From a virus (lineage: Duplodnaviria; Heunggongvirae; Uroviricota; Caudoviricetes; Crassvirales), in IMG/VR virus record IMGVR_UViG_3300035698_016817, positions 64,001 to 78,613 of that record: a stretch of DNA of 14,613 nt; one strand, 5' to 3'. Each line of letters opens with the position of its first letter. The stretch's first letter is position 1. A program made the translations under genes and the position numbers. Below the pieces are notes generated by a model. The model did not search any database, was not told the DNA's origin, and saw nothing but the letters and a program-made list of their open reading frames with translations. Shown piece by piece: positions 318 through 12,564 of this stretch.

Positions 318-3061
318 TATTCTTTCATTTTCTTTTCCCACCAAGAATCCTCGCTTGTTTTGGGCTCTTTTTTTATCGTAGTTTCTCCATAACCTGGACC
401 GGCATTGTAAGCTTCAGACTTTTTATACCCTCCTAATTGAAAACCAGGTCTTTCTTCTTGGTTTGTTCGTATTGCGTACTTTTTACCTGACTTATCTCCC
501 TCCTGACTACCAAAATACTGAGCCATATTTCTTGCAAAACCGTATGAACTCTGGGCTTTTCCTTTCGCTTCTTTAATTTTGTCAGTGGCGCTTAAATCTC
601 CTCTATCTAAGTGAGCGTAAGCGTCATCGTTGAAATTGTAAGTGTCTAATACTAAAGTATCTGGTTCTGACGTTTCTAAAGTAGGAGTGACAACTATAGA
701 CGTTCTTCCCAAGGAAGATTGTGTTTGAAATCCAGGGTCTGTAAGTAAAGCTTTAGCTGTTTTAACTCCTGAACCTCCGTAAGCTTGATGAGGTCTAAGA
801 GCCTCATAATCCGGGTAACCTATATTGGTTTTTCCTTCGCTTAAGTTTTTTCTAGTGATCTGTCTTAAGACCTCCATTTGATCTCCTGTAAAATCTCCTT
901 CTGTTCTTATTGGAGGCATACTATTAGGACCGTAATTCATTACTTGCTTCCTAAACACGTCATCAGCAAGAGCGGAAATTGGAGTCATTGCTCCGGGAAA
1001 AAAAGATTCTAAAAACCCTGTAACGGGAGCGGCCTCTCTTACGTTTCTTCTAGTCTGTCCATCGCTTTTTGGATTGTCAGTTTTAAACTTTTCATAGAGT
1101 CTATGAGTTTCATCTCCCCACACACCATCTTCATTAAGTTTTTCTCCAATCTGACTTAATTGTGGATACGATTCATTTAAAAATCTCTGCAATGCTTTGA
1201 TGTTGGTCCCTTGTTTAATTACAGGCGAATACGTCTTGGAAATAGGTTCTCCGCCTTCTCCTTCGTTTGGAAAACCTCCTAATTGAAATTGAGGCAGATC
1301 ACCATTTATTTTTTCTTCCCACCAGTAACCGCCATTTTGAAGCTTAGGTTTTCTTGCGGCTCTTTCTGCCTTGATCATTTCTCTTCTTTCACTCGCGCTC
1401 ATTCCTGTTGAATTATGGTTTCTTTTAGCAAGAGCGGCAGCGGTTCCAAAAGTACCTGCCGCCATTGTGCCTACAATCGATTTAAGGCCATTTTCTATAA
1501 AATCAATTTTTTGATTGATTATTTTGTTTTGTCCTGATCGAAGGTCTTGCTTCTTGTCAAATATCTCTCCTAATTCTTGATGTGACTCATTCGTTATACT
1601 TTTATCTAATTCTTTTGCTTTTGCTTTTGTGGTGGCAAGTTTTTCTCCAATCATCTCGTATTCTTCCATCTCTCTTCTTTTCAGAGCCTTCTCTTGCTGA
1701 ACCTTTCTGCTTATTCCGGGATCTCTAGAGCTTATTTTAGCATCTATCTTCTTGGCTCCTTCTGGACGAACAAAATACCCTTCCGTTGGCCCCATATCCT
1801 TTAGTCCTTGATACCCTTTCTTTAGGTTTATGTTGGGGTCAATCTCTGGCAAAACTTTCTTATAAGAATCTAACTTCAAAAACCCTTGATAAGAGTCCAT
1901 TAAACTTGAGGAAATTCTTCTTTGAGACGCAGCCCCATAACCACCCTCTGCAATTAAGTCATTGGAACCTTGAGAAAGATATTTAATCACGTCCAATCTC
2001 TGCTCTGGAGTTCTTCCTTCAGATATAAGATTCATTCTTAGTTCTCCTTGAAATCCAGCCATTCCCTCTTGATTTGGCGTAGAGAACTGGTTCATTATTT
2101 GATTAGAGTTACTACTGTAATTTCCCTCTCCAAGCATTTTCGCACCCGGACCCCTACTTGTTAAGAGGGCTTCACGTATTGTTTGTTCAGAAGAATTTTC
2201 TGGAAGAATAACTCCTCTAAGACTTTTTGAATATCTATCTGAAAAATCATTTACAAGAGACTCGTTTCCCCTAAACTTTTTTGGGTTCATCAAAGCCTCA
2301 TCAAGCATCCCTTTGCTGTCAAGGTAGTATCCATAATTATTTCCTATAAAGTCTTTTGATGCCGGATGATTCATTGGATTCATTTTGCCAAATCCACGAC
2401 GAAGATTATCATACGAATTCTTTAATTGATACTCTCTTCTCCAATAAGGCTTTTGAGCTTCTCTACTAGTTCTTTCAGCAGCGTTAAACGTTTCTTCCGC
2501 AGACTCTTTATAAGGATCAAGGCTGTCTCTAAGTTTTTCGTGTTCTCGTTGAATTCTTTTTGTTCTTTTTAAAGAGTGCACTGGATTTCCAGAAATGAAT
2601 CCATCTATTGTTGGATTAGTGTATTCAGATGCAGCAGCAGCAATCTTTTGAGTTCCCTTATTTACAGCCGCGCCAAGTAATACAGCGCCCATGCCGTAAG
2701 TGGCCCCTTCTGCTGCTGATAACGCTCTATTCCCCCAATTACCACCTCTATTTTTCTGATACTCTTCTGGAGTTGGTCTTTCAAGTGTAAATATTGTGCG
2801 TGGAGCGTATGCAAAATCTGTTCCTAAATCACTAAGGAAATTACCAGCTCTCTGCATGTTGGTGGGCCCTTCACGAAGCGTTCCTTCGCTTGGATTCCTT
2901 CTCTGTTCCACCCTAAACCTTCTTCCTGCCCAAGGCTCTAAAGGAGCAACCTCTTCGAAGTCAGGAATTGGAGGTGTGTTTATGTTAGTGTTGTCTCGTG
3001 CTGCTCCACCAAGTTGAAACTCAGGTAGGTCACTGTTTATTTTTTCTTCCCACCATTTCAT
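317..3061 (-). CDS. 914-aa modular protein, probably virion-associated, with an internal peptidoglycan-binding-like domain
   Basis: Long ORF whose start overlaps the portal stop (ATGA). Segment IKALQRFLNE...LNEDGVWGDETHRLYEKF matches the PG_binding_1 pattern. Repeated WWEEKINxDLPxFQLGG / FQLGG motifs. Lies directly downstream of portal. Confidence 0.8.
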   Translation of the reverse strand: MKWWEEKINSDLPEFQLGGAARDNTNINTPPIPDFEEVAPLEPWAGRRFRVEQRRNPSEGTLREGPTNMQRAGNFLSDLGTDFAYAPRTIFTLERPTPEEYQKNRGGNWGNRALSAAEGATYGMGAVLLGAAVNKGTQKIAAAASEYTNPTIDGFISGNPVHSLKRTKRIQREHEKLRDSLDPYKESAEETFNAAERTSREAQKPYWRREYQLKNSYDNLRRGFGKMNPMNHPASKDFIGNNYGYYLDSKGMLDEALMNPKKFRGNESLVNDFSDRYSKSLRGVILPENSSEQTIREALLTSRGPGAKMLGEGNYSSNSNQIMNQFSTPNQEGMAGFQGELRMNLISEGRTPEQRLDVIKYLSQGSNDLIAEGGYGAASQRRISSSLMDSYQGFLKLDSYKKVLPEIDPNINLKKGYQGLKDMGPTEGYFVRPEGAKKIDAKISSRDPGISRKVQQEKALKRREMEEYEMIGEKLATTKAKAKELDKSITNESHQELGEIFDKKQDLRSGQNKIINQKIDFIENGLKSIVGTMAAGTFGTAAALAKRNHNSTGMSASERREMIKAERAARKPKLQNGGYWWEEKINGDLPQFQLGGFPNEGEGGEPISKTYSPVIKQGTNIKALQRFLNESYPQLSQIGEKLNEDGVWGDETHRLYEKFKTDNPKSDGQTRRNVREAAPVTGFLESFFPGAMTPISALADDVFRKQVMNYGPNSMPPIRTEGDFTGDQMEVLRQITRKNLSEGKTNIGYPDYEALRPHQAYGGSGVKTAKALLTDPGFQTQSSLGRTSIVVTPTLETSEPDTLVLDTYNFNDDAYAHLDRGDLSATDKIKEAKGKAQSSYGFARNMAQYFGSQEGDKSGKKYAIRTNQEERPGFQLGGYKKSEAYNAGPGYGETTIKKEPKTSEDSWWEKKMKE
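1274..1324 (-). repeat. Copy 2 of the intragenic 17-codon repeat (WWEEKINGDLPQFQLGG)
   Basis: 15 of 17 residues identical to copy 1, with synonymous DNA differences. Preceded by a further LQNGG. Confidence 0.9.
3005..3055 (-). repeat. Copy 1 of an intragenic 17-codon repeat (WWEEKINSDLPEFQLGG)
   Basis: Near-identical peptide at 1274-1324 (WWEEKINGDLPQFQLGG). Partial copies at 428-442 (FQLGG) and 329-343 (WWEKK). Confidence 0.9.
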
Positions 3062-5355
3062 TTTCTTGCAGTTGGAGTTGGTTTGTCACGCGTAATTTTC
3101 TCAGTAGCCTGATTGTGACGAATCGTTTCACTAAGCTGCCCTTCTTTTACCCGCGTCTCTCTGTTCTTGAAAGCGTTCTCCATTTGTGTTGGCCCTTCTG
3201 GAGCAGCTGTAGTTGTAGTTGCAATAGGCTCTGAATACTTAGAAGCGGCATTTGCATCTGCAATCTGAAGAAGCGTGTCATTGTGCTCTCTAGCGATCTT
3301 CTCCTTAGACTCTCGGTCTTTATCGTTGTCAGCAAATTCAGCTTCTCTTATCGCTTGTTCAGCTTTAGATTGTTCAGCCATAGCTTGTTGCTCTGCTTGT
3401 TGAGCTTGTTGTTGCTGTTGAGCTAATTCATCTTCAACTTTTTTGATTTTTTCTTTCATCAAAACGAAGTTTTCTTGATCAATAATCTCTAACGCTGTAG
3501 ACGCAGGGCCCCCTTTTTGAACGATTCCCTGAGCAACTTGAATTGCGTAATTGAGCTTCTCTTGATCTTTAGAAGAGTCGCTCATAAAGACTCCGAGGTC
3601 AGAGTAATTCCAAACTTCAGGATCAATATTCAAATACTCTCTAGTTCCGTCTGGCATAACGAAGCTGGTTTTCTTACCGTCTTTCCAGCAGTGCTTGCTT
3701 AAGTCGAGAAGGGCTTGCATGTCTCTTTGTTCGAAACCAGCAAACTTACGATACATGTCTTCAGTTGTATGTGAGCTTTGAACGATAGCTTGCTGTCCAG
3801 TAGCTTTCCCTTCGTAAGGAGACATTTCACCTAGCCTTTGGCGATTTACTCCAGCAACTCTGTGCCATTCTTCTTCAATACTTGCGAGAAGATTTAAGTA
3901 CATATCAATCGTTTTGATTGACAAATCCATTACTGTTTGGTGCTGAGGATTTAACCTGATTCCTTCTTTATTGTAATCTACCCAGGCTATTCCTGAGCCC
4001 TCGACCATATTCATGAATTTATCCATACTCCATTTCTTTGGAATAAGGTTGATGTCAAACTGAGCAATGATGTCTTTAGAACGAGCGATTGCCAATTCTA
4101 AACGGTATTTATACGTGTTGTAGTTTAGCTGATAAGGAATCCCTAGCATTACCGGGCTCACGTTAGCAGTGTTTATGTCAGAGTAACGTCTCCCGTTTAT
4201 CGGAAGCTTGTTCTTAGAAACGTTGTCAATTGAAGCTCTTTCGTATGCGTACGGCTGAACGTCTATACTAAAACCAGAATCGTTGTCTCCAATGTTAGTT
4301 CCTTCCCAGACTTTATTATCCCACAACCACTGAATTTTAGCTTCTAGTTCTTTTAACCATGGCTCTATTTTGTAGCCATCTTCAACCTCAAACATTTCTT
4401 CCGCTCCTGTCATTGGGTCGAGGTAAGATACAATCCCACGTCTCTCCATCCCTTGCCAGTAAACAGTCGTGACTTTTGTCAATCGATTACTTTGTCTGGA
4501 AGTTCTTGAATCTCTAAGAGAAGTAAATCCGTCAAAGTATTCTCCTTTTCCTGAATCAGAAAATATCTCGTCCATTTGATCGGTGGTCATTCTACTTCCC
4601 CACCTCTCTATTATCTGACTTGGAGTCATCCACCTAGTAATAACAGCCCAGTCCGCGTCTTCTACGTAATCTAATTCGGGGTCCAAGTCGTAATCAATAT
4701 CCATAGGGTTGAGCGGGTAGTAACTTACTTCGTTGTTTCTCAAAGTTCTCTCAGAGAAGCATTCTCCAGAGACCATAAAGTGGAACCAACATTTCTGCAG
4801 GTTCTCATGAACTCTTGCTTCTCTAATGATATAAGCCATCCCTTTTTGACCCAATACGGCGTGATTATCAACATAAGAACGGTTATGCATTTCTGCAGCT
4901 ACCTTAGGTTCTTGAGTCTCTTTTGACTCTTGTCCGGTTTCCATTCCAGCTTCATTCATGGCGTTAACCATGTCTTGTTCTATGGTTCCCAGAATGGAAG
5001 TGTTTAGCTCAGTTTCTTTTCTTGTGATGGTATCCTGGTTTGTGACAACCACGCTGTAATTGAAAGGCCTCTTAGCTTTTTCTCCTAATAAGTAATCGAT
5101 TACTGGCTTGATTAACGGGTAGTTCCGCATCTTAGAAGGGAAGAACTCTCTTTTCTTTCCGTAAGGTTTAAGTACGTAGTCGTAATCCGACGTATTAATT
5201 ACTCCGTTGTAATAATCGTAAAGCTTTTGAAGCCCTTCTCTTCTGCTTTGACCACGATCATCTATCAGCGAAATATACGCTGCCATGGTAGTGTCTTTAA
5301 ATTCTTTCCCTTTTCTAGAGATAGGAATTCTTTGATTGGGGATATTTTCGTGCAT
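3058..5355 (-). CDS. Portal protein, crAss-like
   Basis: 765 aa directly downstream of TerL. Motifs YDYYNG, YPLIKPVIDYLLGE, PMDIDYD, WHRVAGVNRQRLG and DLGVFMSDS resemble crAss-type portals as I recall them. Q-rich coiled-coil C-terminus. Confidence 0.85.
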   Translation of the reverse strand: MHENIPNQRIPISRKGKEFKDTTMAAYISLIDDRGQSRREGLQKLYDYYNGVINTSDYDYVLKPYGKKREFFPSKMRNYPLIKPVIDYLLGEKAKRPFNYSVVVTNQDTITRKETELNTSILGTIEQDMVNAMNEAGMETGQESKETQEPKVAAEMHNRSYVDNHAVLGQKGMAYIIREARVHENLQKCWFHFMVSGECFSERTLRNNEVSYYPLNPMDIDYDLDPELDYVEDADWAVITRWMTPSQIIERWGSRMTTDQMDEIFSDSGKGEYFDGFTSLRDSRTSRQSNRLTKVTTVYWQGMERRGIVSYLDPMTGAEEMFEVEDGYKIEPWLKELEAKIQWLWDNKVWEGTNIGDNDSGFSIDVQPYAYERASIDNVSKNKLPINGRRYSDINTANVSPVMLGIPYQLNYNTYKYRLELAIARSKDIIAQFDINLIPKKWSMDKFMNMVEGSGIAWVDYNKEGIRLNPQHQTVMDLSIKTIDMYLNLLASIEEEWHRVAGVNRQRLGEMSPYEGKATGQQAIVQSSHTTEDMYRKFAGFEQRDMQALLDLSKHCWKDGKKTSFVMPDGTREYLNIDPEVWNYSDLGVFMSDSSKDQEKLNYAIQVAQGIVQKGGPASTALEIIDQENFVLMKEKIKKVEDELAQQQQQAQQAEQQAMAEQSKAEQAIREAEFADNDKDRESKEKIAREHNDTLLQIADANAASKYSEPIATTTTAAPEGPTQMENAFKNRETRVKEGQLSETIRHNQATEKITRDKPTPTARK

Positions 5356-5359
5356 ATTA

Positions 5360-5367
5360 CAAATTTA
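5360..5367 (-). promoter_or_regulatory. Bacteroidota sigma-A -7 box TAAATTTG, 4 nt before the portal ATG (probable leaderless mRNA)
   Basis: Minus strand reads TAAATTTG-TAAT-ATG in the only sizeable intergenic gap of the packaging operon. Matches the TAnnTTTG consensus. Confidence 0.65.
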
Positions 5368-9686: not shown

Positions 9687-9705
9687 ATCTGATTTTGTTA
9701 TCCGA

Positions 9706-9713
9706 CAAATATA
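9706..9713 (-). promoter_or_regulatory. Bacteroidota -7 promoter box TATATTTG for the Acb2-like to terL operon
   Basis: Exact TAnnTTTG between tRNA-Tyr and the ATG at 9686. Confidence 0.65.
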
Positions 9714-9725
9714 CAGAAATGTTAT

Positions 9726-9810
9726 TGGTAGGACAGATAGGACTCGAACCTATACAGCGTTAACGTCGGGGTTACAACCCGGTGAGCTCATGCCAGTGCT
9801 CAGCTGTCCT
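9726..9810 (-). tRNA. trnY: tRNA-Tyr(GTA), long variable arm, CCA encoded (block A)
   Basis: Acceptor AGGACAG/CTGTCCT, anticodon loop TTGTAAC, T-arm ATAGG-TTCGAGT-CCTAT. Confidence 0.9.
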
Positions 9811-9815
9811 ATTTG

Positions 9816-9902
9816 CAGAGGATATAGGAATCGAACCCTGCCGCTGTTACACGACCGCACCAAGGTTCAAACCTGGCTGGTCACCATTGACCGCTATCCT
9901 CT
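9816..9902 (-). tRNA. trnS: tRNA-Ser(TGA) (block A)
   Basis: Acceptor AGAGGAT/ATCCTCT, G73, loop TTTGAAC, long variable arm. Confidence 0.88.
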
Positions 9903-9910
9903 ATACTCTG

Positions 9911-9993
9911 CAGAAAACGGAGGCCTTGATCCCCAGTCCAGAACGGACCCAGCTCCTTAGCAGGGAGCGCCTACCCAGGTAGGTTCATCTTCT
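9911..9993 (-). tRNA. trnS: tRNA-Ser(GCT), atypical T-loop (block A)
   Basis: GCTCC-CTGCTAA-GGAGC anticodon arm, long variable arm, T-loop ATCAAGG, G73. Confidence 0.8.
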
Positions 9994-9998
9994 GTGTG

Positions 9999-10069
9999 AG
10001 GTACAAGTTGGATTCGAACCAACGTGACAAGGTTTGCAATCTTGCCCCTATCCTCTCGGTCATTGTACC
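9999..10069 (-). tRNA. trnC: tRNA-Cys(GCA) (block A)
   Basis: Acceptor GGTACAA/TTGTACC, U73, loop TTGCAAA. Confidence 0.9.
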
Positions 10070-10074
10070 TTAAG

Positions 10075-10146
10075 ATCTCCGTACCGGAATCGAACCGATT
10101 TATCCTGCTTACAAAACAAGCGCATCGCCATCAATGCTTACAGAGA
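10075..10146 (-). tRNA. trnT: tRNA-Thr(TGT) (block A)
   Basis: Acceptor TCTCTGT/ACGGAGA, loop TTTGTAA, T-loop TTCGATT. Confidence 0.88.
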
Positions 10147-10153
10147 ATATGTG

Positions 10154-10228
10154 TGCCCAAGGATGGAATCGAACCATCGAAAAACAGAGTTTAAGTCTGT
10201 CGCGTAGTCCTGCGTCCGCCACAAGGGC
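10154..10228 (-). tRNA. trnL: tRNA-Leu(TAA), short variable loop (block A)
   Basis: ACAGA-CTTAAAC-TCTGT, 5-nt variable loop, A73. Confidence 0.85.
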
Positions 10229-10233
10229 CAGTG

Positions 10234-10308
10234 TACTCCCAGCAGGGATCGAACCTGCAAAACTCTCGGGCCTAAACCGAGCGACTTTACCTATTTGCCC
10301 ATAGGAGC
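10234..10308 (-). tRNA. trnL: tRNA-Leu(TAG), short variable loop (block A)
   Basis: CTCGG-TTTAGGC-CCGAG, 6-nt variable loop, A73. Confidence 0.85.
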
Positions 10309-10310
10309 TT

Positions 10311-10348
10311 AAAACAAAAAATCCCCGTCCAAATTAATGAGCGGGGAT
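10311..10348 (-). terminator. Intrinsic terminator / attenuator hairpin A, upstream of tRNA block A
   Basis: ATCCCCG...CGGGGAT stem followed by TTTTTGTTTT on the minus strand. Confidence 0.85.
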
Positions 10349-10374
10349 CCAAAATATTGGGTGTACCTACTCCG

Positions 10375-10425
10375 TCACATGGCTGTGTACGATAACGTGA
10401 GTAGGCAATAACTAATCATTTTCAT
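10375..10425 (-). CDS. Leader peptide A, MKMISYCLLTLSYTAM (16 aa), putative attenuator sensor
   Basis: ATG 4 nt after a TAnnTTTG box. Codons AGT TAT TGC CTA CTC ACG TTA TCG TAC ACA match the downstream Ser/Tyr/Cys/Leu/Thr tRNAs. A terminator follows. Confidence 0.8.
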   Translation of the reverse strand: MKMISYCLLTLSYTAM

Positions 10426-10429
10426 GACG

Positions 10430-10437
10430 CAAATATA
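10430..10437 (-). promoter_or_regulatory. Bacteroidota -7 box TATATTTG for leader A / tRNA block A
   Basis: TATATTTG-CGTC-ATG. Confidence 0.75.
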
Positions 10438-10448
10438 AACATAATAAG

Positions 10449-10522
10449 TGGGACAGGCAGGTTTCGAACCATGCTCCTCAAGTTTTTCAGACTAGCGCTT
10501 CTACCAAGTTAGCTTCTGACCC
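10449..10522 (-). tRNA. trnF: tRNA-Phe(GAA) (block B)
   Basis: Loop CTGAAAA, acceptor GGGTCAG/CTGTCCC with one T.T mismatch, A73. Confidence 0.85.
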
Positions 10523-11450: not shown

Positions 11451-11520
11451 TGGAGTACGAGGGAGTCGAACCCTAACATTTTCGTTGCAAACGAAATGAC
11501 CTGCCATCGGCATCGCCCCC
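11451..11520 (-). tRNA. trnA: tRNA-Ala(TGC), irregular acceptor stem (block C)
   Basis: TTTCG-TTTGCAA-CGAAA. G3:U70 and A73 retained; the lower acceptor stem is mismatched or bulged. Confidence 0.75.
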
Positions 11521-11852: not shown

Positions 11853-11857
11853 ATTAA

Positions 11858-11990
11858 AAAAGCATGGTGAGGTAAGTTGCCTCTCCTTATGATTGCGTTG
11901 TGGTTGTCTTAACGGTTGTCCTCTGGTGGACGGTCGTCCTTAAGTTAGGCCCTTGCCTTACAATACGCAATATATACTCACTCATGCTTT
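11858..11990 (-). ncRNA. Unknown rod-like structured element between tRNA-Asp and tRNA-Gly, containing a Thr-rich 32-codon ORF (11887-11985)
   Basis: Nested stems AAAGCATG/CATGCTTT, GTGAG/CTCAC, ATTGCGT/ACGCAAT, CTTAA/TTAAG and GGAC/GTCC. Confidence 0.5.
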
Positions 11991-11993
11991 AAG

Positions 11994-12073: not shown

Positions 12074-12123
12074 AGAGCGAAGAGGTCATGAACCCCTTTA
12101 AGTGCTGCAGCACCGAACACTCT
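12074..12123 (-). ncRNA. 50-nt tRNA-like minihelix (acceptor-like stem plus T-arm-like hairpin; no anticodon arm)
   Basis: AGAGTG/CGCTCT, GTGC-TGCA-GCAC, AAGGGG-TTCATGA-CCTCTT. Confidence 0.4.
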
Positions 12124-12125
12124 AG

Positions 12126-12198
12126 TATGGGAAGCAGGGCTCGAACCTACGATCTCCGCGTCCCAAACGCGGCGCGATACCAACTTCGCTATTCCCAT
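12126..12198 (-). tRNA. trnP: tRNA-Pro(TGG), first tRNA of block C
   Basis: CCGCG-TTTGGGA-CGCGG, acceptor ATGGGAA/TTCCCAT, A73. Confidence 0.9.
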
Positions 12199-12203
12199 GT
12201 AAC

Positions 12204-12236
12204 AAAAAAGCCCCTCTCTATTCGAGAAGGGCTTTT
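12204..12236 (-). terminator. Intrinsic terminator / attenuator hairpin C, upstream of tRNA block C
   Basis: AAAAGCCCTTCTC-GAATA-GAGAGGGGCTTTTTT. Confidence 0.88.
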
Positions 12237-12257
12237 GATTTTTTAATGTCTATGTCT

Positions 12258-12344
12258 TTATTTTCTCGAATACATAGAGTTCCCTTTCGTCCCGCCATTG
12301 GCGCGATCCATAATCGGTTGTTCTATATGTCTTCCTGTATTCAT
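12258..12344 (-). CDS. Leader peptide C, MNTGRHIEQPIMDRANGGTKGNSMYSRK (28 aa), putative attenuator sensor
   Basis: Codons 4-15 (GGA AGA CAT ATA GAA CAA CCG ATT ATG GAT CGC GCC) map one-to-one onto the 12 tRNAs of block C. The last codons contain the antiterminator strand. Confidence 0.82.
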   Translation of the reverse strand: MNTGRHIEQPIMDRANGGTKGNSMYSRK

Positions 12345-12352
12345 TGAAGCCT

Positions 12353-12360
12353 CAAAGCTA
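12353..12360 (-). promoter_or_regulatory. Bacteroidota -7 box TAGCTTTG for leader C / tRNA block C
   Basis: TAnnTTTG 8 nt before the leader ATG, overlapping the upstream TAG stop. A TTG lies 20 nt upstream (-33-like). Confidence 0.6.
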
Positions 12361-12564
12361 GTCATCTTTTTTCTTTTCTACAACTATTTCAGGAAGTATT
12401 TCATCTTCTATTTCAGCTGTTGGTTTTCTAATCTTTTTTTCAAGAGCTATTTGAAAATCAATGAACCCTTCTTTTCCCGTGTAACAAGAGGGGCCTATCT
12501 TGTAAGACCCTGGCTTTATTTCCTTGTTCATTTTTTCTCTGGCACTCTTCTCCCACTTTTCCAT
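12358..12564 (-). CDS. Hypothetical 68-aa protein
   Basis: Protein-like composition (GSYKIGPSCYTGKEGFIDF). Stop lies just before leader C. Confidence 0.55.
   Translation of the reverse strand: MEKWEKSAREKMNKEIKPGSYKIGPSCYTGKEGFIDFQIALEKKIRKPTAEIEDEILPEIVVEKKKDD

What the first reader, a model, noticed from the sequence alone, without database searches (positions are those of the whole stretch)
10311..10437. Attenuator A: SYCLLTLSYT sensor resolved to isoacceptor level
Block A is Leu(TAG), Leu(TAA), Thr(TGT), Cys, Ser(GCT), Ser(TGA), Tyr. The leader uses AGT for Ser-GCT and TCG for Ser-TGA, CTA for Leu-TAG and TTA for Leu-TAA, plus TGC, TAT/TAC and ACG/ACA; CTC is the only loose fit. Helix 1:2: TGCCTACTC-(A)-CGTTA (10407-10393, inside the sensor codons) pairs with TGACG-GAGTAGGTA (10377-10364, spanning the stop) for 14 bp. 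The predicted 2:3 helix, GTGACGG with CCG(C)TCAT in the terminator 5' arm, is weaker than in B and C.
Basis: partly seen in the sequence, partly recalled or inferred. Interest (0 to 1): 0.82.

Follow-up and report, generated by a model that had tools for sequence, protein, structure and literature searches.

The report
Leader-peptide attenuator gating phage tRNAs
In an uncultured crAss-like phage, a 16-codon mini-gene written almost only in the amino acids of the seven tRNA genes behind it sits in front of a transcription stop signal, so the phage probably makes these tRNAs only when ribosomes run short of them, a control I found described nowhere for tRNA genes.

Summary
On the minus strand a Bacteroidota-type -7 box lies 4 nt before an ATG. 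The ORF is MKMISYCLLTLSYTAM. A hairpin plus U-tract terminator ends 2 nt before tRNA-Leu. The ten-codon run uses only Leu, Thr, Cys, Ser and Tyr, the amino acids of the downstream block (14 of 20,000 shuffles match it).

Two points are weaker. The Ser(GCT) "gene" is called by no detector.

The strongest support comes from elsewhere. Leaders B and C of this array follow the same plan, and so do six leaders in cultured Cellulophaga phages of two other lineages. Those phages divide the amino acids among blocks differently, and each leader tracks its own block.

Attenuation is therefore the best reading, at about 0.65 for A. This scan has noted the same class before on other DNA. I found no paper describing it. 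No homologue of cassette A exists for covariation, and no RNA data were available.

The parts
10431..10438 (-). Bacteroidota-type -7 promoter box TATATTTG, 4 nt before the ATG. This implies a leaderless or nearly leaderless mRNA.
   Evidence: Sequence read. The pattern TAnnTTTG-N4-RTG occurs 3 times in the window (portal gene, leader A, leader B) against 0.35 expected, and 0 of 200 shuffles reach 3. The Cellulophaga phage leaders have the same geometry.
10375..10425 (-). Leader ORF of 16 codons plus TGA, encoding MKMISYCLLTLSYTAM.
10384..10413 (-). Sensor run of ten codons: AGT TAT TGC CTA CTC ACG TTA TCG TAC ACA (SYCLLTLSYT). It uses only the amino acids of block A.
   Evidence: Run length 10 is reached by 14 of 20,000 shuffles. 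Runs against the sets of blocks B and C are at most 2. Codon-to-anticodon check.
10389..10407 (-). Region 1, the 5' strand of helix 1:2. It lies inside the sensor codons.
   Evidence: MFE (-19.5 kcal/mol, z = -3.0).
10364..10380 (-). Region 2, the 3' strand of helix 1:2. It spans the stop codon. Its core GAGUAGG (10372-10366) is the upstream arm of the candidate antiterminator.
10349..10360 (-). Small hairpin CCAA-UAUU-UUGG between region 2 and the terminator.
   Evidence: Present in all MFE structures.
10339..10345 (-). Region 3, CCCGCUC inside the terminator 5' arm. It pairs with 10372-10366 when region 2 is free.
   Evidence: MFE under ribosome masks. (P paired 0.8-1.0 under sensor stalls, 0.01 with the ribosome at the stop). 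The pairing is weak: -5.5 kcal/mol, equalled by 18-26% of shuffles.
10321..10348 (-). Intrinsic terminator hairpin: 7-bp G+C stem, an internal mismatch, a 3-bp inner helix, and a loop within the motif CUCAUUAAUUUGG.
   Evidence: -13.6 kcal/mol. The loop motif is shared with a Cellulophaga phage phi4:1 tRNA-leader terminator and with many IMG/VR phage terminators.
10311..10320 (-). U-tract (with U10321: U6 G U4), ending 2 nt before tRNA-Leu(tag).
9726..10308 (-). Regulated block A: tRNA-Leu(tag), Leu(taa), Thr(tgt), Cys(gca), a 95-nt tRNA-like spacer with a GCU anticodon loop (9903-9997, unverified), Ser(tga) and Tyr(gta).
   Evidence: The Ser(GCU)-like element was tested.

Best explanation
Element A is a ribosome-mediated (leader-peptide) transcription attenuator that gates the last block of a phage tRNA array.

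1. Host RNA polymerase starts at the TATATTTG box, so the transcript begins at or next to the AUG. Transcripts reading through from block B also enter here, because no terminator follows tRNA-Phe.
2. A ribosome translates the 16-codon leader.
3. If all ten sensor codons (Ser, Tyr, Cys, Leu, Leu, Thr, Leu, Ser, Tyr, Thr) are decoded quickly, the ribosome reaches GCC-AUG-UGA and covers region 2. The terminator hairpin 10348-10321 then forms and transcription stops in the U-tract, 2 nt before tRNA-Leu.
4. If the ribosome stalls on any sensor codon because that charged tRNA is scarce, it holds region 1 open. Region 2 is left free to pair with the inner 5' arm of the terminator, which delays hairpin nucleation, and the polymerase runs on into the seven tRNA genes.
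5. With no ribosome at all, helix 1:2 sequesters region 2 and termination is the default.

The result is negative feedback: the block is transcribed when any tRNA of that block is limiting.

Shown here: the ORF, the codon-set match, helix 1:2, the terminator, the geometry, and the recurrence in other phages. Inferred: translation of the ORF, stalling, the identity and sufficiency of the 2:3 pairing, and the physiological trigger.
For: (1) Codon-set match. The run of 10 is reached by 14 of 20,000 shuffles. B gives 212 of 20,000 and C gives 91 of 20,000. The three sensor runs partition all 20 amino acids with no overlap, and cross-assignments give runs of at most 2.

(2) Architecture. The promoter box is 4 nt from the ATG. 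Helix 1:2 has z = -3.0 and the whole leader z = -4.2. The terminator abuts the first tRNA, leaving no room for another promoter.

(3) Switch logic.
- In transcripts cut before the 3' arm, a ribosome on any sensor codon leaves the terminator 5' arm paired upstream (P 0.8-1.0 on 6 nt).
- On GCC this drops, and on UGA it is 0.01. C behaves the same way, and B shows a smaller drop (mean 0.77 to 0.32).
- The estimated refolding barrier from antiterminator to terminator is 7.4 kcal/mol for A, against 7.9-11.0 for B and 4.7 for C.

(4) Independent recurrence.
- Cellulophaga phages phi40:1/phi38:1/Calle (Pervagoviridae) and phi4:1 (Lightbulbvirus) each carry three promoter-leader-terminator-tRNA-block units.
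- Their diagonal runs are 10-16 and off-diagonal runs at most 5. In five of the six (the scan picked the wrong terminator for phi40_2), strong antiterminators (-8 to -15.7 kcal/mol) exist only while the ribosome is in the sensor run.

(5) Natural swap.
- In the window, Leu and Thr share a block with Ser, Tyr and Cys, and the leader follows.
- In the Cellulophaga phages Leu sits with Pro, Glu, Gln, His and Arg, and Thr sits with Ala, Lys, Ile and others, and their leaders follow that instead.
- Arg codons follow the isoacceptor: AGA in the leaders of Arg(tct) blocks and CGA or CGT in the leaders of Arg(acg) blocks, 4 of 4.

(6) Codon choice. The leader avoids the phage's favoured CTT, TCT and ACT and uses A/G-ending codons that U34 tRNAs read directly (3.6% by chance).
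Against: - It is no better than 18-26% of shuffled spacers.
- At equilibrium with the full hairpin present, the terminator wins under every ribosome position, so the switch must be kinetic.
- The Ser(GCT) gene needed for the AGT codon is not recognised by ARAGORN or Rfam.
- CTC needs U:C superwobble.
- No homologous cassette of A exists for covariation. 80 metagenome relatives lack tRNAs and the closest relative has lost the array.
- Population contigs showed no variants.
- There is no experimental evidence of translation, termination or read-through for any of these leaders.
- Phage T5 tRNA blocks show no such leaders, so the design is not universal.
Confidence: 0.65

Rival explanations
1. 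The leader ORF and the terminator are real and coupled, but read-through in A is not set by a 2:3 antiterminator helix. For example, the stalled ribosome could open the strong 1:2 hairpin and change polymerase pausing or coupling. Or A could be a mostly constitutive, leaky gate whose dynamic range is small compared with B and C.
For: The 2:3 pairing is weak and not above chance. Helix 1:2 is strong and significant. The terminator wins at equilibrium under every mask.
Against: The on/off profile of 5'-arm occupancy coincides exactly with the end of the sensor run, as in B and C. The refolding barrier is comparable to that of B. Most of the other leaders use a plain antiterminator.
Confidence: 0.17
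2. The ORF is a coincidence. The hairpin is simply the terminator of block B or an insulator, and block A is expressed by constitutive leak-through.
For: No terminator separates tRNA-Phe from this element, so it also ends block B transcripts. The terminator loop motif is a general phage terminator type.
Against: The run of 10 in-set codons covers all five amino acids (14 of 20,000 shuffles). The same coincidence would have to recur in B, C and six leaders of other phages with different partitions. The ATG sits 4 nt after a promoter box.
Confidence: 0.05
3. The ORF encodes a functional small hydrophobic peptide, or the terminated about 110-nt leader acts as a small RNA. Its composition would then be unrelated to tRNA sensing.
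For: The peptide is hydrophobic. Terminated attenuator RNAs and leader peptides can act in trans in Sinorhizobium (abstracts of PMC7968998 and PMC7298713, listed).
Against: There is no sequence conservation of the peptide between phages, only conservation of the rule that leader residues equal the block's amino acids. Sixteen residues is too short for a membrane span. A trans role would not explain the set match.
Confidence: 0.04

Closest known systems
Multivalent leader-peptide attenuators of enterobacterial amino-acid operons (trpL, hisL, leuL, thrL, ilvGMEDA leader); textbook knowledge, modelled in PMC1183508
   Same: A short ORF with regulatory codons, a 1:2 hairpin, mutually exclusive antiterminator and terminator, an intrinsic terminator before the regulated genes, and ribosome position as the signal.
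   Different: The regulated genes are tRNAs, not biosynthetic enzymes. The sensor lists one to three codons for each of five amino acids (seven tRNAs) instead of tandem runs of one amino acid. The mRNA is leaderless. The element is phage-borne. No Rfam leader family matches.
pheM leader controlling the pheST (phenylalanyl-tRNA synthetase) operon of E. coli (own knowledge, not checked here)
   Same: Attenuation by a leader peptide applied to a gene of the translation apparatus rather than to a biosynthetic pathway.
   Different: It senses one amino acid and regulates a protein gene. It is chromosomal.
Leaderless polycysteine short ORFs acting as Cys-responsive attenuators in mycobacteria (bioRxiv 10.1101/834739, abstract seen)
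   Same: A leaderless short ORF whose translation speed sets expression of downstream genes.
   Different: It senses a single amino acid. The downstream genes encode proteins. It was not described with a terminator abutting tRNA genes.
T-box riboswitches
   Same: A leader RNA that turns on translation-related genes when a tRNA is not charged, through a terminator/antiterminator choice.
   Different: T-boxes bind the tRNA directly through a specifier codon and the T-box sequence, without translation. No T-box match was found here. They are known from Firmicutes and Actinobacteria rather than Bacteroidota.
Leader-tRNA-block units of Cellulophaga phages phi38:1/phi40:1/Calle and phi4:1 (found here; annotated at most as hypothetical proteins, for example Phi4113_075)
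   Same: The same promoter-N4-ATG geometry, a sensor run equal to the block's amino acids, and a terminator just before the first tRNA. The terminators are similar to those of A (loop CTCATTAATTTGG) and of B.
   Different: The amino acids are partitioned differently among blocks, so the leader peptides differ. Their antiterminators are much stronger than that of A.

Membership tests
Ribosome-mediated leader-peptide transcription attenuators | A short translatable ORF in the transcript upstream of the regulated genes | tested here: met
   A 16-codon ORF lies 4 nt after a TAnnTTTG box. Translation itself was not shown.
Ribosome-mediated leader-peptide transcription attenuators | Regulatory codons cognate to what the regulated genes supply | tested here: met
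   Ten of ten consecutive codons belong to the amino acids of block A (14 of 20,000 shuffles). Nine of ten are readable by standard wobble. Caveat: the Ser(GCT) gene is unverified.
Ribosome-mediated leader-peptide transcription attenuators | An intrinsic terminator between the leader ORF and the regulated genes | tested here: met
   A -13.6 kcal/mol hairpin plus U6GU4 ends 2 nt before tRNA-Leu.
Ribosome-mediated leader-peptide transcription attenuators | An antiterminator, exclusive with the terminator, that forms only when the ribosome stalls on the regulatory codons | tested here: inconclusive
   The on/off profile is correct. The helix is only -5.5 kcal/mol and is equalled by 18-26% of shuffles. 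It is clearly met for B (1-2 of 300-500 shuffles).
Ribosome-mediated leader-peptide transcription attenuators | A 1:2 hairpin that sequesters the antiterminator strand when the leader is not being translated | tested here: met
   -19.5 kcal/mol, z = -3.0.
Ribosome-mediated leader-peptide transcription attenuators | Read-through increases on shortage of the cognate charged tRNA | not testable with these tools
   No RNA run holds the phage. An experiment is needed.
Curated Rfam leader families (Thr_leader, His_leader, Trp_leader, T-box and others) | A match at the family's gathering score | tested here: not met
   Only sub-threshold chance-level hits were found: NsiR1 at 24.1 bits over the A terminator and Thr_leader at 23.5 bits over the C terminator.

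The most novel reading that the evidence does not exclude
Phage tRNA arrays in Bacteroidota phages, and by earlier scan notes in other phage groups, may be run by modular closed-loop sensors. Each block would carry a leaderless test peptide that lists its own tRNAs one codon at a time. Loss of any single host or phage tRNA, for instance through anticodon nucleases of defence systems or phage-induced host tRNA decay, would then switch on exactly the block that replaces it. The sensors are rewritten whenever tRNAs move between blocks, and whole cassettes are exchanged between unrelated phages.
Probability: 0.35. Interest if true: 0.9.

Novelty: new variant of a known kind. Interest (0 to 1): 0.78.

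Why it matters
Why phages carry tRNAs is an old question. Recent work points to replacement of tRNAs destroyed by host defences (eLife 2023, PMC10264068; Nature 2024, PMC11464382). Neither that work nor a virus-wide tRNA cluster survey (PMC6409571) nor the phi38:1 infection transcriptome paper (PMC5335546) mentions any control of phage tRNA genes.

A leader peptide that enumerates the tRNAs behind a terminator would mean the phage measures decoding capacity codon by codon and tops it up on demand. It would extend classical attenuation to RNA genes and to one-codon-per-species sensing. It also gives a direct read-out of which tRNAs the phage expects to lose.

The same design is present in cultured Cellulophaga baltica phages, so it can be tested at the bench now.

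Tried and rejected
- Homologous cassettes for covariation of A: none found.
  - The TerL-like neighbour gene found 4 IMG/VR loci and 80 metagenome loci. Only L001 has a tRNA, and it has lost blocks A and B.
  - Megablast and blastn against 50,697 phage records matched only single tRNAs.
  - A look-up by sequence in the scan's notes found only this window.
- Pattern scan for the terminator loop of A in IMG/VR. It returned more than 80 generic terminators, and no tRNA array apart from phi4:1 itself. The scan for the terminator of B found only phi4:1.
- Public runs: no RNA holder is listed. Contigs of four salt-lake runs laid on the array were fragmentary pieces of the same genotype plus unrelated tRNA hits, with no variant in 10311-10437.
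- Equilibrium folding with the complete hairpin: the terminator forms under every ribosome position, so thermodynamics alone does not give a switch.
- Ser(GCT): no call from ARAGORN at default or at -ps90, only an implausible 64-nt call at -ps80, and no call from the Rfam tRNA model at E <= 10.
- Rfam hits NsiR1, Thr_leader and sau-19 were all far below gathering scores and were rejected as terminator look-alikes.
- Phage T5 tRNA region, checked as a test of generality: its small ORFs do not mirror the tRNAs that follow.
- My first automatic terminator pick for Cellulophaga leader 2 was wrong. A longer fold shows the real terminator and a 1:2/2:3 design.
- Literature: six full-text searches found no description of attenuators on phage tRNA genes.

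Full report
**What the window is**

The window is the last 14.6 kb of a 78.6-kb viral record. It holds a P22-like portal gene and a large terminase-like gene. Earlier notes of this scan call the genome a divergent crAss-like phage; I did not re-test that. The DNA occurs in several salt-lake metagenomes.

On the minus strand lies a tRNA array from 12198 to 9726.
- ARAGORN tRNAs.
- Rfam adds Phe(gaa) at 10449-10522 and a weak Ala(tgc) at 11451-11519.

**The observation**

Read on the minus strand, the region runs as follows.
- TATATTTG at 10438-10431, then four bases.
- ATG at 10425, followed by AAA ATG ATT.
- Ten sensor codons: AGT TAT TGC CTA CTC ACG TTA TCG TAC ACA.
- GCC ATG, then TGA at 10377-10375.
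- 26 nt further on, a hairpin at 10348-10321.
- U6-G-U4 ending at 10311.
- tRNA-Leu(tag) starting at 10308.

- In the minimum-energy fold the helix extends to 10407-10389 with 10380-10364. It is worth -19.5 kcal/mol, z = -3.0, and 1 of 200 shuffles folds as well.
- The whole leader has z = -4.2.

The run SYCLLTLSYT uses only the five amino acids of the downstream block.
- Such a run appears in 14 of 20,000 dinucleotide shuffles of the spacer.
- L, S, T, Y and C make up 24% of codons in the six long ORFs of the window.

Two details are weaker than stated.
- The Ser(GCT) gene at 9903-9997 is not called by ARAGORN at default settings or by the Rfam tRNA model at E <= 10. It does fold into a five-arm cloverleaf with anticodon loop CUGCUAA, but with a 4-nt D loop and a non-canonical T loop.
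- Sampling of all seven tRNAs is expected 32% of the time given the peptide. Adding the requirement that at least nine codons are readable by standard wobble lowers this to 3.6%. The leader avoids the phage's favoured CTT, TCT and ACT.

**The context inside the window**

The array has three such units.
- Leader C (ATG 12344) contains GRHIEQPIMDRA and precedes Pro, Asp, Gly, Met, Glu, Met, Ala, Ile, Gln, His, Arg, Arg.
- Leader B (GTG 10941) contains NWNKVFK and precedes Lys, Val, Asn, Trp, Phe.
- Leader A precedes Leu, Leu, Thr, Cys, (Ser), Ser, Tyr.

The three runs split the 20 amino acids with no overlap. Each leader scores runs of at most 2 against the other two sets. Shuffle frequencies are 14, 212 and 91 of 20,000 for A, B and C.

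TAnnTTTG-N4-RTG occurs three times in the window, at the portal gene, leader A and leader B. The expected count is 0.35, and 0 of 200 shuffles reach three. This fits host-type Bacteroidota promoters and leaderless mRNAs.

No terminator separates tRNA-Phe from the promoter box of A, and none separates the last tRNA of block C from leader B. The three gates therefore also act in series.

**Does A work as a switch?**

- Free RNA folds into helix 1:2, a small hairpin and the terminator.
- With the full hairpin present, the terminator forms whatever the ribosome covers. Any switch must therefore be kinetic, as in classical attenuators.
- I cut the transcript just before the 3' arm and masked the RNA up to 12 nt past the A-site codon. 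Every stall from AUU to ACA then leaves GAGU-GG (10372-10366) paired with CC-GCUC (10345-10339). With GCC, AUG or UGA in the A site the pairing is lost.
- In the ensemble, those six arm bases are paired upstream with P 0.8-1.0 under sensor stalls and 0.01 with the ribosome at the stop. C gives 0.57 to 0.0 and B gives 0.77 to 0.32 as arm means.
- The findpath barrier from the antiterminator state to the terminator state is 7.4 kcal/mol for A, 7.9-11.0 for B and 4.7 for C.

On the other side, the helix adds only -5.5 kcal/mol.
- Between 18 and 26% of shuffled spacers do as well. For B the figure is 1-2 of 300-500, and for C 21-28 of 300-500.

For A the logic is therefore right, but the antiterminator is not independently supported.

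**Evidence from other phages**

Relatives found through the terminase-like gene do not help with A.
- 80 metagenome loci have no tRNAs.
- The closest relative, L001 (71% identity), keeps the leader C homologue, its terminator and tRNA-Pro. The rest of the array is replaced by a chimeric tRNA remnant.

The tRNAs themselves pointed to Cellulophaga phages, and those carry the same design.

In phi40:1, phi38:1 and Calle (Pervagoviridae), three leaders start 4 nt after TATATTTA or downstream of TATATTTG. Each ends before a terminator.
- YNNFSWYSNCSFSSYN precedes Tyr, Ser, Ser, Asn, Trp, Phe, Cys.
- LLHQEPLEQLRLP precedes Pro, Glu, Gln, His, a tRNA with a Leu(tag)-like anticodon loop that I assigned by eye, Leu(taa), Arg.
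- KTIMNIATDIRTKGVK, with one off-set residue, precedes a candidate Ala(tgc) assigned by eye, Lys, Ile, Gly, Met, Asp, Thr, Val, Arg, Ile.

In phi4:1 (Lightbulbvirus) the runs are as follows.
- QRLHLQELEQP
- TKTGITVIDKTKGARA
- NYC-T-YNNSNWSFSY

Across these phages:
- The run matrices are diagonal: 10-16 on the diagonal and at most 5 off it.
- In five of these six leaders, antiterminators of -8 to -15.7 kcal/mol exist while the ribosome is in the sensor run and vanish after it. For the sixth, phi40_2, the automatic scan picked the wrong terminator; a longer fold shows a 1:2/2:3 design.
- Arg codons follow the isoacceptor of the block in 4 of 4 cases.
- The window partitions the amino acids differently from these phages, and its leaders follow its own partition. 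This works as a natural swap experiment.
- The terminators of A and B resemble two phi4:1 leader terminators, which suggests cassette exchange.
- Phage T5 has nothing comparable.

**Comparison with what is known**

The element works like the multivalent leader-peptide attenuators of amino-acid operons. It differs in three ways:
- it controls tRNA genes;
- it lists about one codon per tRNA;
- it is leaderless and phage-borne.

It matches no Rfam leader family or T-box. Six literature searches and three directly relevant papers gave no description of such control.

Earlier notes of this scan report the same class in other phages. Of those I re-derived only the marine Bacteroidota case; the rest are untested leads.

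**Verdict**

The specific 2:3 helix and the Ser(GCT) gene remain open. I put attenuation for A at about 0.65 and rate it a new variant of a known kind.

Noticed in passing
window 10329-10341; loci L089-L204: The loop of terminator A (CTCATTAATTTGG) is a recurring phage terminator loop. A scan of IMG/VR for CNCTCATTAATTTGGRNG returned 118 or more stretches. About 80 of the hits read lie between complementary G+C flanks followed by a T-run, in many unrelated contigs. This looks like a conserved terminator type of unknown significance.
   Followed up: partly
L001:7440-7790 compared with window 12120-12370 and 9690-9760: The closest relative (71% identity in the terminase-like protein) keeps the promoter box, a leader C homologue (MSIKRHIEQPIINDRAMNADNGTSM), the terminator and tRNA-Pro. 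The rest of the array is replaced by a chimera of a tRNA-Met 5' part and a tRNA-Tyr 3' end, which points to deletion by recombination between tRNA genes. TTCGAG/CTCGAA in the window against GCGAG/CTCGC in L001 looks like a compensatory change in the antiterminator of C.
   Followed up: partly
window 9903-9997 (-): A 95-nt spacer between tRNA-Cys and tRNA-Ser(tga) folds as a five-arm cloverleaf with a GCU anticodon loop and a long variable arm, but no tRNA detector calls it. It may be a non-canonical or decaying tRNA-Ser. Several tRNAs of the Cellulophaga phages are also only found at relaxed thresholds.
   Followed up: partly
window 11853-11992 (-): The 140-nt spacer between tRNA-Asp and tRNA-Gly inside block C is closed by a long-range stem (AGCATGAGTGAG with CTCACCATGCT) followed by a T-run. 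It holds a Thr-rich ORF that does not match the tRNAs that follow. Its function is unknown.
   Followed up: no
window 5353-5367 (-): The portal gene start has the same TAnnTTTG-N4-ATG geometry as leaders A and B, which suggests leaderless mRNAs are usual in this phage.
   Followed up: partly
L088:5096-5215; L086:2403-2534, 2972-3091 and 4542-4694: GenBank annotation of the Cellulophaga phages lists one leader as a hypothetical protein with a too-early start (Phi4113_075). It also places several short hypothetical CDSs on the opposite strand across leaders or uncalled tRNAs. These are probably mis-annotations.
   Followed up: no
L207 (phage T5, 26000-44000): The small ORFs between T5 tRNA genes do not mirror the tRNAs that follow. 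T5.070, before tRNA-Cys, is Cys-rich, but in CxxC pairs typical of a zinc ribbon. The leader design is therefore lineage-restricted.
   Followed up: partly
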